From assembly GCA_963791045.1 (NCBI GenBank), contig CAWBQK010000011.1, positions 224,001 to 288,000 on the forward strand: 64,000 bases of DNA, in the 5' to 3' direction. The DNA comes from Candidatus Latescibacterota bacterium. GTDB taxonomy: Bacteria > Krumholzibacteriota > Krumholzibacteriia > WVZY01. This document shows positions 18,001-27,000 of the stretch, in pieces. The position numbers were made by a program. Positions within the stretch are counted from its first letter, which is position 1. Every line of letters starts with the position of its first letter.

Positions 18001-21000
18001 TATCCCAAAGATCTCGCCGCGGGTATCGTGTCGGGCGACGCCGTCCTGGTCTGGAACACAAATCCCGAACCCGATGTGACGCACTACGCGGTTTATAAGA
18101 ATGCCGATCCGGCCTTCATTCCGTCGTCGGCTAACTTTGTCACGCTGGTTGCAGCACCGGACACCACGTACAACGACGGTACGGCGGTCAGCGGCATGTA
18201 TTACAAGGTGAACGCCGTCGACGCGACCGACTATGCAGGCGGCTACGCCGGCCCGGTTGAGGCGGAAGCAACGGGTATCGGTGATGATGTTGTGTCGTTC
18301 ACCAACAACCTGTCGCAAAACCATCCCAACCCGTTCAACCCGACGACAAGGATCTCGTACGAGATCCGGTCGCGTGTCCACGTCTCGCTCTCCGTGTACG
18401 ACGTGCAGGGCCGGACGATTAAGACTCTCGTGAACGAGGTCAAGAGTCCCGGGCAGTTCACCGCCCAGTGGGATGGAACCAACAACAACGGTTCGCGCGT
18501 ATCGACAGGCGTGTACTTCTACCGGTTGAACGCCGGGTCGTTCGTGCAGACCAAGAAAATGGTAATGCTGAAATAATTCGTGCTTTGGTTAGTTCAAAAA
18601 CCCGGTCACCGATGACGAAGTCGGCGGCCGGGTTTTTTTATTTTCTTGTTCGTTCGCGCCGCGTAACCAGGAACCAATTCGATTCACCACCGCAATACGC
18701 ATTTCTTATCAACCAATTTGACAGTCGAATGTGAATCGTGTTGCCAAAATACGGGGTGGCGGTATGTGGCCATCTCTATAACTCGTTATATAACCACATA
18801 TACCGTCTGTCCTCCGAAGTGGCACGCCGGTTGCCATAGGACATTACAACAATCAACTCGAGACCCCGCTAAGCCTACTGCTCAACGCGAACACGACACC
18901 TCGCGTCGCGGATGGCTAGCTCGAATCGTCCAGGGGTGGAGGGTTACAGGCATCCGAGAGGAGGTACTCACGACATTGTGCGGCATTGATTCCCCCAAGG
19001 CCACCCAAGGCCGCCAACTTGCACCAGCAGGCTTTGTTCGCGCAATATTGATGAGAAGGAAAGTGCAATCCAACGGATGACCTTAAAGCCCCGCGATGAC
19101 CGCGGGGCTTTTTATTTGTGAAGACGAAGAGGACGCACTCGACATGACTTACCTCTTTAACATTGAGAAACACGTGGGACAGAACTCGGGGTTCTTGACA
19201 TCAATGTCTTCGACAAACGTCGACGAGTGCATGACGCAGGAGTAGTTGTCGCAGTGCTTGAGATTGAAGGTGTGGCCGAGTTCGTGGAACACTTCTTTCT
19301 CGAGCCTGTGGAGTTCGGTGTCGGGATCGTCGGGAAGTCCATAAAAAGAATTTCGCAGACGATGACACGATGCCACGGCGACGGAGCCGTCGAGCTGAGC
19401 TTCGCCAAAAACATGGGTGAGAACGGGGATAAATAAATCCTGATCGGTGATCCCGATGAGTTTTGAGTCGGAGGGCACGACCTTGAGGAGTTCGAGGAGC
19501 AGAGACGTAGAATTATACTGCATCCGTCTATCGTCGAACGAGCCGCGAAGGTCGATGGCGGGTGCGAAAGAAGCGGACGGAACTCCGAAAACTTCGGGTA
19601 TCCGACGCAAGATATGACTCATGGAGCCTTCTTTTGGTGTTACAAGAGGCGCCACGTAGATTGTCGAGATCATTCGCCTTGTTTGGTGAGTCCGAACTTC
19701 TTGATTTTGTTGTATAAGGTCACCCGGTCGATACCGAGTTTCTTGGCTGCCTGGGTAATGTTCCAGCCGGTCTGTTCGAGAACGGTAACTATATGATTCT
19801 TCTCAACAGATTCCAACGAGTCGTTCGGCGCGGGTTTCTCCACCTCTGGGCCGTGAAGCGCCAGGCATTCCGGACGAATCTCGGTGAACCGGCATGCGAC
19901 GACGGCGCGTTCTATGGCATTCTTGAGTTCGCGGACGTTGCCCGGCCAGTCGTGATGAACGAGCTCGTCCATCGCCTCATCCGTAATGGAGTCTATCGGT
20001 TTGTTGATCTGTCGCGCGTATTTCTGTACGAAATGTTCGACGAGCACTGGAATATCCGAACGCCGCTCGCGAAGCGGCGGAATCGTGATAGGGAACACAT
20101 TGATCCGGTAGTAGAAGTCTTCCCTGAAATCTCCACGCTTGATGGCCTCTTCGAGATCCTGGTTGGTCGCGCAGATCACGCGGAAATCAACCGAGATGAG
20201 CTGATTGCCTCCGAGCCTCGTGAACTGCCGGGTCTCGAGTGCGCGGAGAAGATCGATCTGTGTTTTCGCGCTTATCGTTCCGATCTCGTCCAGAAAGAGC
20301 GTTCCGCCGTCGGCAACCTCGAGCTTGCCTTTGTGCCTGTATTGAGCGCCGGTAAAAGAACCCTTTTCGTGTCCAAAAAGCTCGCTCTCGAGAAGCGACT
20401 CATTGAGAGCGCCGCAGTTTACCGGCACCAGGGGAAAATAGCGGCGGGGGCTCTTGGCATGGATGAGCCTGGCGACGAGTTCTTTGCCCGTTCCGCTCTC
20501 GCCGCGAATGAGAACCGTTACATCGGATTGGGCAACGGTGTTGCTGAGTTCCTTGAGTTTCTGAACGGCGGGGCTTTCCCCGATCAGGTCGTCCTCGAAG
20601 GCCAGCTCTTCGATCCGCTTTCTCAATTCGATGTTCTCTTTTTTGAGCATCCGCTGTTCGACGGCGCGCGCGACGAGACGGCTGAGATCGTCGGGGTCGA
20701 TCGGTTTGGTGACATAGTCGAATGCCCCCTCCTTCAACGCCTCGACCGCCGTATCGACCGACGCATACGCAGTGATCATAATCACGATGATGCTTGGATC
20801 GATCCGTTTGATTCGTTTTTGAAGCTCCATGCCGTCGATGTTGGGCATCATGATGTCGAGGAGGACGATGTCGAAGGATTTCTCGGAGAACTGTTTTAAC
20901 GCGTCGGCGGCATCTTCGGCCTTGTGCGCGTCATAACCGTCCTTGTTGAACCAGTCACAAAGCGAGTTGCGAACGGCAGATTCGTCGTCGACAACCAGAA

Positions 21001-24000: not shown

Positions 24001-27000
24001 CGTTGATGAACTTGAGCGGCTTCTGAAGATTGAATCTTTTCAGGACGAGTGGACTGAATTCGAGTGCGAGAACCGTTGTGTAGAACATCACGCACATCGC
24101 TACTTCGAACATCACCGAGTGGGGGTTGCCCATAACCATCGGATGCCAGATCCGATACGGCCGACCGATGTCGATAAGAAGCGCGACCACGACCAGGACA
24201 TAGCCGAGAAAAGCGGTCAAGATTGTGGGGCGTGCGATATCCTCGTATTTTTCGAGGTGAAAAATGTGGACGGTTGCCGCGATGACGAACCCGCCGGCGG
24301 CAAGACCGACACCCACAAGGATGTCAAACCCGATCCATAGCCCCCAGGGGAATTGATCGGAGAGGTTGGTTGCCGCGCCGAGTCCCTGTGCGAAGCGGAC
24401 GACGGTTGCGTAAATCCCGAGCGCCATTATTATCGCAAAGATGCCCTTCCATACTTTACCCATCATTCCCCTCCCTTCTCGTCGAGCTTTGTGACCTCGC
24501 GATTGCTTGCCTCATTGCCGAGTTTTTCCAAGGTCATCCGCCGTTTGATGATCCAGTGGATTCCCACAAGCCCGACGCCGCCCACCGCAACTATGCTGGG
24601 GATCTTTGAAAGGATATTCCAGGTGAGATGCGGGTACGAGGTTCCCTGCTGGACTGATTTGAATCCCAGCTCCTCGAACGGCACCGGCGAGAGATAAAGG
24701 ACTCCCGTACCGCCGGCCTCGGTCTCGCCGTAAATGTGATTTACGTACCGGCTGGGACTCCCTGCGATCCGTCCCCGAGCTTCATGGAGGAGTTCATCAC
24801 GGTCGCCGAACTTCGTGGCGCCGGTGGGGCAGACCGATGTACACGCCGGCTCTTTGCCCTCTTTGACTCTTTTGTCGTAGCACATGATGCATTTCTGTAC
24901 CTTCGGCAGGGGGCTTCCCCACTCATAGGTTGGAATCTCGAACGGGCACGCCATCATACAATAACGGCACCCGATACACCGCCACTCATCATAGATGACG
25001 GGTCCTTCGGGTGTTTTCCTGAGTGCTGTGACGGGACAAACAGACACACAGGTCGGTTCGTGGCAGTGCATGCACTGCTGGCGTATGTTGATCCCCTTTT
25101 CCTGCCGGATGGCTGTCCAGGCATTGTCAGACAGTTTTGATGGCTTGTGTTGCGTGGGTAGCTCGTTGATCTCCTGGCATGCAAGCGTACAGGCGCCGCA
25201 GCCGATACACTTTGTGAGATCAGTTAAGATCGCAGCTTCCATGTGTCACATCCTCCTCCCCTGATGGTGACGTTCTGGTTATCGAGAAAAAGCCGTTCGA
25301 GAAAACGGCCATGAAGGGTTAGTTGAGTTTACTGAAAATCCGTCCGGTTGTCACCAGACGTTCAGAACTCGTGCGCGCCCCTTCGAGGGCGCGCACGAGA
25401 TTTTCGCCGGCGTTCGTCACGCCGATTGCTTGACCACGAACCTTAGTCAAAGAACTTCTCCTGAATCTGCTTCCACTCCGTCTCGTTCAGGAAGTCGATC
25501 AACCCGTAAGCGGGCAGACCGCCATCCTGGAGCGTTTGACCCAGAACAGGGTTGGCGGGAGCGACCGTAGCGAGGATCACCTTGAGGCGCTGAACCTCGC
25601 GGCTGAGCCAGTCTTTGGCTGACTCGCCCAGAAGCAGACTTTTCTGGAACACTGCGGTGCTGGCGGGCTTGATCCGGTAGACCCAGCCAGCGGCGAACGG
25701 CTCGGTGCCGTACATTTCGTGACTTTCGAGCAGTTCGGAGTTCACATCTTGAATTACGCCGTCGACCGGGGCACGGAATGTCGCGGTCCGGTCTCCGTGG
25801 CGAAGCTTCAGTAGAACGTCGCCTTTCTTGACCCGGTCGCCGAGGGCGCGGGTCTGAACGCTGTCGACTTTGCCGAGGATTGACTGGGCAAAATCATTAA
25901 TACCGACCCGTGCGGAGCCGGATTCTTCGAGGAAGAGCCATGTGTGACCCGGATCGAAGAATACGCCATTGGGGGTCCGATACCTGAGCTGAGCGGCCGG
26001 GTGCGCCATCGCGCTTACCGCGCCCATCTGGCCAGCCATCTGGGTAACCGCCACCGTGGCGGTCTGCCGACGCTGAACGAGATAATCGATCGTCAAGAAG
26101 CAGAGAATCGAAAGAAGTACGAGTAGAGCGACCATTTGTTGAACCTCCTCAAGGTGTCCGAAAAAGAATCTTTACTGTTTCTGTAGCCATTTTCATCACT
26201 TTGTAACCGTGTGTATGTTGTCTACGCTTACTTGTATAGGCATAGACCGGACCGAAAACGCAAAGAAAGCGTGAAATTTTTAACAAGCTTTTAACTCATT
26301 GAATGTATATATGTTATGAGGGTCGATCGCGAGGTTGTGGGGCGTGGTTCAAGGGACGGCCAGGAGGGTGTTGTTGAAGAACTCAACAGGTGTTTTTGGG
26401 GATTTCAGTATTCAACGACCCTATGTGTTTGTTATGACTTCGATTAAGTGGGTGTTTAATAATTAAACACCCGCTGTTGAATAGTTAAACAATTCAACAC
26501 TTGTGGTGCAGGGGCGTTGACTATTTATACAGCCCTCTGTAACGGCCTTTAGTATGGAGCGATTACAGAGGCCTCTCGGAGATTAGCCGGTGAGTCCTGC
26601 GTTCCCGGTCTACAGGTTCTCTTCGAAGAATCGTGTCATCTTTGTGAAGAGGTGGGCGCGGGCGGTGTTCCCGCCAATACCATGCCGACCCCTGGGGTAG
26701 ACCATCAGATCAAAGTCTTTCCCCGCATTTATGAGCTCGCTCACCAAAACCATGGTGTTCTGGGCGTGGACGTTGTCGTCCGATGTCCCGTGAGCGAGGA
26801 AAAAAGCGCCCTGAAGGTTGGCGGCGAAGTTCGCCGGAGACGATTCATAGTAACCGTCTTCATTGTCCTGGGGCCGTTTCATATACCGCTCGGTATAAAT
26901 GAGATCGTAGAAGCGCCAATCGGTGACCGGCGCCACGGCCGCCCCGGCCTTGAACACGCCGGGGGTTTTGAGCATTGCCATCGCGGTCATGGAACCGCCA

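What a model noticed while it worked through the whole genome (the two positions that open the first line are those of the whole stretch)
19149..26135. Membrane-anchored GcvH without its lipoyl lysine heads a redox-sensing cassette that ends in archaemetzincin
A six-gene cassette encodes a GcvH-fold protein with an N-terminal membrane anchor and no lipoyl lysine (g01998), a 4Fe-4S protein and an NrfD-type membrane subunit (here fused to a c7 cytochrome), a sensor kinase with CxxCH motifs, a sigma-54 regulator and an archaemetzincin protease. It gives bacterial archaemetzincin a fixed partner system and shows a non-lipoylated use of the H-protein fold.
Evidence so far: Homologues in 12 of 60 phylum genomes; of 12 fetched regions 8 hold all six genes in order, 1 lacks the Fe-S/NrfD pair, 2 end at the contig edge, 1 is a different fusion. 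The E-x-x-K lipoyl motif of true GcvH (g02587) is absent in g01998 and all 13 homologues, which share a TM start and a C-terminal DGG motif. Peptidase_M54 lies within two genes of a sigma-54 regulator in 3751 of 10233 genomes; GCV_H near NrfD in 2606 and near Fer4_11 in 2866. Searches 108, 113, 115 found no such link.
(Added by a program. Inside this text positions count along the whole contig: contig position 224,001 is position 1 of the stretch shown here. "Call 12" and the like, gene names such as g00115 and contig names such as C1 are that model's own, and its searches are not shown. The text may have been shortened before it was handed on; [...] marks where a part breaks off. The agent that wrote the report below was given it as the finding of a first reader that could run no searches.)

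Follow-up and report, generated by a model that had tools for sequence, protein, structure and literature searches.

The report
Haem-kinase switch with lipoate-free H-protein output
Six neighbouring genes form a widespread, apparently unstudied signalling circuit in which a haem-containing membrane sensor switches on a membrane-tethered, lipoate-free copy of a familiar metabolic carrier protein, accompanied by a zinc protease whose natural target may be that protein.

Summary
All six genes are real and conserved, in this phylum and in Acidobacteriota; the scan noted this cassette on at least eight other genomes. The H-fold protein (GcvL) has an N-terminal anchor, no lipoyl motif and a near-invariant C-terminal DGG loop. 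New here: (1) a sigma-54 promoter and a triple palindromic enhancer sit upstream of gcvL (29 of 35 held-out loci; 29 of 2000 random stretches), follow gcvL through inversions and duplications, and are the only such site in six genomes, so gcvL is the regulator's target; (2) one clade replaces the sigma-54 regulator by a receiver-GcvL fusion and lacks the DGG loop, enhancer and archaemetzincin (0 of 15 genomes versus 40 of 40; a single event); (3) the kinase sensor is a two-motif relative of haem-bound Geobacter sensors; (4) the Fe-S subunit has no Tat leader and no catalytic partner; the c7 fusion is rare. Best reading: Fe-S/NrfD/haem kinase sense, GcvL is the output or feedback protein, archaemetzincin probably resets it. 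Signal, GcvL target and protease substrate are inferred, not shown. No description found in ten paper searches.

The parts
26372..26531 (.). Enhancer: palindromic 17-mers YGTTGA-N5-TCAACR at 26372-26388, 26453-26469, 26475-26491 and a weaker one at 26515-26531
   Evidence: 116 sites in 35 of 36 upstream regions against 4.5 in shuffles; held-out test
26237..26256 (-). Sigma-54 -24/-12-like promoter (GG 26253-52, GC 26241-40); a weak match here (9.4 bits), stronger in relatives
   Evidence: GG-N10-GC 64-121 nt before the start in 30 of 36 regions
25443..26135 (-). GcvL, 230 aa: N-terminal anchor (2-20), low-confidence linker (31-49), H-protein fold without lipoyl lysine (Asp at that column), C-terminal DGG loop (204-206)
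25243..25442 (-). 200-nt spacer with four hairpins, the strongest of 14 pairs at about 25368-25399; may end or stabilise a gcvL-only transcript
   Evidence: z -4.85; in most relatives the gap is only 3-70 nt
24463..25242 (-). HmcB/HybA-like protein with 16 Cys (four Fe-S motifs), C-terminal helix 214-232, no Tat leader
22904..24466 (-). HmcC/HybB-like NrfD-family membrane protein fused to a trihaem c7 domain
21112..22836 (-). Histidine kinase (likely start ATG near 22746): two helices around a Cache-fold sensor with invariant Met, CxxCH and Cx4CH; HAMP, HisKA, HATPase
19670..21022 (-). NtrC-type sigma-54 response regulator (GSFTGA loop variant; 9 of 62 relatives, 53 GAFTGA)
19149..19673 (-). 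Archaemetzincin with intact HExxHxxxxxH, Met-turn and four Cys; start overlaps the regulator's stop; no signal peptide or helix
   Evidence: (151.7 bits, cut-off 145)
19085..19111 (.). Terminator-like hairpin between the cassette and the convergent S8 peptidase gene

Best explanation
A self-contained two-component circuit. The HmcB-like Fe-S protein, the NrfD-type membrane protein and the two-haem kinase form the input unit, most likely reporting the redox state of the quinone pool or periplasm (inferred). The kinase phosphorylates the NtrC-type regulator (established for the family; pairing inferred from synteny). The regulator binds three palindromes and starts sigma-54 transcription at gcvL (sites shown by comparative genomics; binding inferred). 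GcvL, tethered with its H-fold domain in the cytoplasm (topology inferred), carries no lipoate and acts as a protein-binding output or feedback regulator, in the way CpxP or ZraP serve their kinases (analogy recalled). Archaemetzincin probably removes or clips GcvL at or through the DGG loop and resets the circuit (inferred; about 0.35 on its own). In one clade the transcription step is bypassed: the kinase acts on a receiver fused into GcvL, and loop, protease and enhancer are absent.
For: Promoter and enhancer; held-out 29 of 35 leading gcvL genes have two or more sites, 18 of 35 a sigma-54 score of 9 bits or more, against 29 of 2000 random stretches each. They stay with gcvL where the other five genes are inverted (L018-L020, L023, L026, L027, L032) and each duplicated gcvL has its own set (L025, L028). 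A profile of the triple site finds only this promoter at E below 1e-7 in six genomes. Receiver fusions: Fe-S, NrfD, haem kinase, anchor-receiver-GcvL with no sigma-54 regulator or protease; DG at the loop column in 0 of 16 fusions against 128 of 131 other GcvL domains; no enhancer in 16 of 16 such loci. In 201 Acidobacteriota genomes, cassette-type protease (E below 1e-30) in 0 of the 15 fusion genomes and 40 of the 40 with full-length GcvL (read). Other fusions look like signalling parts: periplasmic binding protein-helix-GcvL. Sensor homology to GSU0935 and GSU0582 (E 2e-6, 6e-6), whose haem switches ligands with redox state (PMC8396549, passages). No catalytic subunit in the cassette; the hydrogenases and molybdoenzymes seen in this genome show no Tat leader. 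Protease catalytic Glu invariant in 42 of 42.
Against: No binding, cleavage or signal is shown. The receiver fusions form one clade (99% SH-aLRT, quick tree), so the joint absence of loop, protease and regulator is one event, and it cannot tell whether the loop serves the protease or the regulator. The Fe-S/NrfD pair is not required next to the kinase (L012, L127, L153, L154) and lies far from it in L120, L122, L129. In the Qrc-linked variant a complete QrcABCD-like operon lies under the same kind of promoter, so there the membrane module is itself a target. In split loci 3 of 10 Fe-S upstream regions still hold two or more palindromes, none with a sigma-54 match. The six genomes were in the training set and other targets with a different site layout would be missed. 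How a leaderless Fe-S protein would reach the periplasmic haems is unexplained. Archaeal archaemetzincins were inactive in standard assays (PMC3427221).
Confidence: 0.55

Rival explanations
1. The Fe-S/NrfD pair is a working quinol oxidoreductase of the Hmc/Nhc/Qrc kind that the kinase-regulator pair induces, and GcvL proteins are accessory subunits docked on NrfD through an HmcD-like helix, offering a cytoplasmic docking face.
For: Best NCBIfam matches are HmcB and HmcC. One GcvL subtype sits directly after hmcC and has a weak HmcD match (E 0.007-0.009, far below the cut-off). c7 fusions, c3 genes and Tat-bearing Fe-S subunits occur in relatives. GcvL genes open and close a QrcABCD-like operon. 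In the window's order all six genes lie downstream of the promoter.
Against: In the inverted loci only gcvL has the sigma-54 promoter. GcvL-kinase-regulator-protease units exist without the pair. 27 of 32 Fe-S genes lack a Tat leader and 28 of 31 NrfD genes lack a cytochrome. Receiver fusion fits a signalling role better.
Confidence: 0.25
2. The kinase is a gas (NO) sensor that needs no help from the Fe-S/NrfD pair; the pair and GcvL are its effectors.
For: The sensor is related to the sCache_heme family, and PMC12889525 (first two of six parts read) reports that such domains fused to signalling modules behave as NO sensors; GSU0582/GSU0935 bind NO and CO (PMC8396549, passages).
Against: No NO-detoxifying gene was recognised among the neighbours that I annotated; the extra CxxCH suggests a relay haem; the pair stays in front of the kinase where no transcription factor is present.
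Confidence: 0.15
3. The archaemetzincin does not act on GcvL: it is a cofactor or protease of the sigma-54 regulator, as CarG is a cofactor of CarD; the DGG loop binds the regulator or another GcvL.
For: The gene abuts the regulator gene in both main orders and is absent with it. CarG precedent (PMC8156234, passages).
Against: The catalytic Glu, replaced by Gln in CarG, is invariant in 42 of 42; the non-proteolytic family scores 75 against a cut-off of 250. Free membrane peptides that carry only the DGG motif show it is a linear motif but not who reads it.
Confidence: 0.3
4. GcvL is still a carrier, lipoylated at a shifted lysine or modified at another residue, feeding sulfur or electrons to the membrane module.
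For: Lys at the lipoyl column in 13 and one position later in 29 of 242 domains; fold kept.
Against: The window protein has Asp-Arg there; the column is variable (Gly, Asp, Glu, Asn); the acidic or Ser-Gly-Lys-Trp context is present in 0 of 147 locus domains against 5 of 5 true H-proteins; the genome has its own true GcvH.
Confidence: 0.04

Closest known systems
Glycine cleavage H-protein (GcvH, PF01597) and LbpA of the sHdr system
   Same: Fold and core residues.
   Different: No lipoyl lysine or motif; membrane anchor; added C-terminal helices and DGG loop; fused to receiver, Cys-rich or binding-protein domains; below all NCBIfam cut-offs including NF045810.
HmcB/HmcC (Desulfovibrio Hmc), HybA/HybB, QrcC/QrcD
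   Same: Tail-anchored four-cluster Fe-S protein next to an NrfD-family membrane protein (10.1101/2023.11.02.564894, section 11).
   Different: No Tat leader, no HmcA/E/F, no hydrogenase or molybdoenzyme beside it. The leaderless pair described in that paper follows a Tat-bearing FeFe hydrogenase; here there is none.
sCache_heme sensors (DUF3365/Tll0287; GSU0582, GSU0935; two-motif GSU0591, GSU0599, Adeh_2011, Adeh_3383)
   Same: Cache fold, haem motif in the same place, conserved Met (PMC12889525, PMC8396549, PMC3831638).
   Different: Cx4CH plus a second CxxCH; Pfam PF11845 score 11 against cut-off 24; tied to an NrfD module.
Archaemetzincins (M54) and myxobacterial CarG
   Same: Full zinc motif and Cys4 site; passes NF033823.
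   Different: Catalytic Glu kept, unlike CarG; fixed beside a sigma-54 regulator; a candidate substrate is encoded in the same cassette.
Two-component systems whose main target is their own accessory protein (ZraSR-ZraP, CpxAR-CpxP with DegP; recalled, not tested)
   Same: Logic: the regulator's main product is an accessory protein, with a protease nearby in the circuit.
   Different: Accessory protein is cytoplasm-facing and of the H-protein fold; haem sensor; respiratory-type membrane module; no sequence relation tested.

Membership tests
GcvH / LbpA lipoyl carriers | H-protein barrel-sandwich fold | tested here: met
   TM 0.88-0.89 over the target
GcvH / LbpA lipoyl carriers | Lipoyl lysine in its hairpin motif | tested here: not met
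   Asp in the window protein; motif in 0 of 147 locus domains
GcvH / LbpA lipoyl carriers | NCBIfam cut-offs (PRK01202 117, TIGR00527 115.85, TIGR03077 144, NF045810 150) | tested here: not met
   71.8, 56.1, 27.8, 21 bits
Hmc complex (HmcABCDEF) | HmcB and HmcC at family cut-off | tested here: not met
   best matches, but 254 of 420 and 311 of 550 bits
Hmc complex (HmcABCDEF) | Tat leader on the Fe-S subunit | tested here: not met
   first Cys motif at residue 12
Hmc complex (HmcABCDEF) | HmcA, HmcD, HmcE, HmcF in the operon | tested here: not met
   only a weak HmcD likeness in a paralogue subtype absent from the window
Hydrogenase-2 HybA/HybB arm | HybO/HybC hydrogenase in the same locus | tested here: not met
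   the genome's NiFe genes lie on another contig among cytoplasmic-type partners (typing from gene content and recall)
sCache_heme sensor | Single Cache fold between two helices | tested here: met
sCache_heme sensor | Haem c motif at the GSU0582/GSU0935 position | tested here: met
   Cx4CH aligns to their CxxCH; invariant in 44 of 44 (rows were chosen for having the first motif)
sCache_heme sensor | Pfam PF11845 cut-off | tested here: not met
   11.2 against 24.1 bits
sCache_heme sensor | Covalent haem and gas or redox response | not testable with these tools
   needs purified protein
Archaemetzincin (M54) | HExxHxxGxxH, Met-turn, four Cys | tested here: met
   the window protein has Asn for the Gly; NF033823 passed
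Archaemetzincin (M54) | Proteolytic activity | not testable with these tools
   needs assay
CarG (non-proteolytic) | Gln for the catalytic Glu; carD neighbour | tested here: not met
NtrC-type sigma-54 activator system | REC-AAA+-HTH with GAFTGA-type loop | tested here: met
   (GSFTGA variant)
NtrC-type sigma-54 activator system | -24/-12 promoter with upstream palindromes | tested here: met
   sequence evidence only

The most novel reading that the evidence does not exclude
The H-protein fold has been turned into a dedicated signalling output: a membrane-tethered protein made, or switched, by a haem kinase that reads the respiratory chain through its own catalytic-subunit-free Fe-S/NrfD probe, and destroyed by an archaemetzincin that recognises the linear DGG motif. 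This would be a new class of response-regulator output domain and the first natural substrate of an archaemetzincin.
Probability: 0.3. Interest if true: 0.88.

Novelty: new variant of a known kind. Interest (0 to 1): 0.72.

Why it matters
Natural substrates of archaemetzincins were stated to be unknown (PMC3427221, 2012); this cassette names a candidate and a motif that can be tested with two small soluble proteins. It also shows that many proteins labelled 'glycine cleavage system H protein' in anaerobes (870 clusters at E below 1e-30; not all inspected) cannot be lipoyl carriers, which matters for metabolic reconstructions. And it offers a predicted operator, promoter and target for a haem kinase common in two phyla.

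Tried and rejected
Complex prediction: kinase core x2 + protease + GcvL as partner. Verdict 'no answer': score 0.66; partner replaced 0.00 and 0.00; kinase replaced 0.72. TatC idea: not found in this 81% complete genome, but present in 44 of 48 and 30 of 30 cassette genomes, so loss of Tat does not explain the missing leader; no leader was seen on NrfD or the kinase either. Single-site pattern search for a wider regulon was too noisy. The triple-site profile missed the Qrc-type promoters, which have a two-site variant. RNA run X1: most of the cassette had no cover; holes in contigs prove nothing and I draw no ranking. No plasmid match. Genome-contig scan gave one true locus and three ordinary H-proteins. 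The DGG flag on L141 was a false pattern hit in the core; Tat flags on L013 and L144 were false, and L126 was missed. The careful tree did not finish; the quick tree is used (106 of 152 domains after removing near-copies). A small DGG peptide found only its own near-copies and no Pfam family. Paper searches with no hit; searches gave background only. Sequence look-up in earlier findings was empty.
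Full report
Observation. The first protein, called GcvL here, folds as an H-protein behind one hydrophobic helix followed by basic residues, which suggests a cytoplasmic domain (inference). Its lipoyl hairpin reads R-H-G-D where true H-proteins have E-S-x-K. Across 242 homologue domains the column is variable and holds Lys in 13; in 147 locus-derived domains none has the lipoyl context that 5 of 5 true H-proteins show. The family is large: 870 clusters at E below 1e-30, 38 of 208 genomes of this phylum, 59 of 201 sampled Acidobacteriota genomes, of which 4 look like ordinary H-proteins, and named records from Ignavibacteria and Bacteroidetes.

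Partners. The haem-motif sensor domain is found in 55 and Peptidase_M54 in 53 of 208 genomes, 50 in common. Order varies: 15 of 40 regions have the window's order, 6 have the other five genes inverted against gcvL, 2 lack the Fe-S/NrfD pair. A second type has kinase-protease-regulator facing a QrcABCD-like operon that begins and ends with Cys-rich GcvL genes. Maximal cassettes hold three GcvL subtypes, one with an HmcD-like helix directly after the NrfD gene. The Fe-S protein keeps 16 Cys and a C-terminal helix but lacks a Tat leader in 27 of 32 genes; a leaderless pair is described only beside a Tat-bearing FeFe hydrogenase (10.1101/2023.11.02.564894; passages and section 11 read). I found no such carrier in the cassette, nor among the molybdoenzymes and NiFe hydrogenases of this 81% complete genome; FeFe hydrogenases were not searched as a family. 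Its location is unresolved.

The sensor. A profile of 44 sensor domains matches the haem-bound Geobacter sensors GSU0935 and GSU0582 (E 2e-6, 6e-6): the Cx4CH aligns with their haem motif and the invariant Met with their Met-Met pair, and the model has a Cache fold. Met60 is a redox-switched haem ligand in those proteins (PMC8396549, passages); that the aligned Met is Met60 is my reading. Two-motif relatives are mentioned in print (PMC3831638, PMC8396549, passages). The family was named sCache_heme and its fused members proposed as NO sensors (PMC12889525, parts 1-2 of 6 read). So haem binding is likely and the signal, redox or gas, is open.

The control region. Upstream of gcvL lies a GG-N10-GC sigma-54-type promoter in 30 of 36 regions and a 17-bp palindrome in 35 of 36 (116 sites, 4.5 in shuffles), mostly as a pair 21-23 bp apart plus a third about 80 bp on. 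On loci not used to build the matrix, 29 of 35 leading gcvL genes have two or more sites, against 29 of 2000 random stretches. In this genome the only cluster of three or more sites is the one here; a profile gives the same answer in five other genomes, all in its training set. Where the five other genes are inverted, promoter and triple site stay with gcvL; where gcvL is duplicated, each copy has them. Against a clean picture: 3 of 10 split loci keep two or more palindromes before the Fe-S gene, without a sigma-54 match. I did not find this motif in the passages that I read of the Desulfovibrio sigma-54 survey (PMC4641369); its figures and supplements were not seen. One 710-base contig of a public RNA library lies on 25435-26144, that is on gcvL, with 12 differences; one study, and DNA in the library is not excluded.

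A natural experiment. In 15 Acidobacteriota genomes and two of this phylum the kinase is accompanied by an anchor-receiver-GcvL fusion instead of a sigma-54 regulator (one locus, L044, is cut by the contig end). The 16 fusion domains lack the DGG loop, which 128 of 131 other GcvL domains keep; their loci lack protease, regulator and enhancer; genome-wide a cassette-type protease is in 0 of those 15 genomes (3 have weak, distant matches) and in 40 of 40 genomes with full-length GcvL (counted by hand from the tables). The fusions form one clade, so this is one event. Three small membrane peptides beside Qrc-type operons carry the motif with no H-fold, which marks it as a linear motif. Binding-protein-helix-GcvL fusions again place the domain where signalling outputs sit.

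Mechanism. Shown: genes, folds, motifs, sites and their joint distribution. From family knowledge: kinase to receiver phosphotransfer and sigma-54 activation. Inferred: that Fe-S/NrfD feed the kinase haems; that GcvL is the output or feedback protein; that the protease resets it through the loop. I put 0.55 on the circuit, about 0.35 on the protease step, 0.25 on GcvL being mainly a subunit of an induced Hmc/Qrc-like complex and 0.15 on a pure NO sensor; these overlap in part.

Known and new. Each part has known relatives, and none of the named complexes is matched in full (membership table). CarG is a bacterial archaemetzincin homologue with a partner but without the catalytic Glu (PMC8156234, PMC3427221, passages); Simiate is described as derived from the H-protein (PMC3859600, passages; its lack of lipoylation is recalled, not read). 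PMC10332631 (passages) treats only lipoylated H-like proteins. Ten library searches showed no description of the cassette; subscription papers are not covered and no supplements were read. The scan itself noted the cassette on at least eight other genomes, read after my own analysis; these are not independent support. Verdict: a real, widespread, apparently undescribed variant of two-component signalling with a new output domain and a testable protease substrate; interest 0.72.

Noticed in passing
window 26610-28694 (-): A DPP IV / S9 peptidase gene lies in two ORFs (28053-28694 and 26610-27980) that match successive parts of DPPIV_N; probably a frameshift or assembly error.
   Followed up: partly
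window 14515-18576 (+): 1353-aa S8 peptidase with beta-helix repeats and a FlgD/secretion-tail C-terminus, convergent on the cassette.
   Followed up: partly
window 29249-32111 (+): Three consecutive ORFs in different frames (209, 312, 452 aa) that read like one large zinc metalloprotease split by frameshifts; not scanned.
   Followed up: no
L073 4277-4543, L075 7879-8157, L076 7890-8144: Small membrane peptides with only the G-x-T/S-M-A-D-G-G motif of GcvL, beside Qrc-type operons; no Pfam family.
   Followed up: partly
L067-L076 and L048-L060: QrcABCD-like operon opened by a soluble Cys-rich GcvL and closed by a helix-Cys-GcvL, with a two-site form of the enhancer and a sigma-54 match, facing kinase-protease-regulator.
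   Followed up: partly
proteins P0156, P0157, P0175, P0181, P0183, P0192: Signal peptide, periplasmic binding protein-like domain, helix and GcvL in one chain; one record is from Bacteroidetes.
   Followed up: partly
protein P0122: Three H-fold domains fused to an FAD-linked oxidase and a CCG Fe-S domain (1391 aa).
   Followed up: no
L087, L088, L094-L098, L113: Large multihaem cytochrome genes (8-21 CxxCH) lie directly upstream of the cassette in several metagenome loci.
   Followed up: no
G000 C15 249000-262000: Cluster of seven multihaem cytochrome ORFs (4-19 CxxCH) next to the complex I genes in the window's genome.
   Followed up: no
L054 14149-15807: ORF with a weak IscB match (E 5e-9, far below cut-off) directly after the protease gene.
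   Followed up: no
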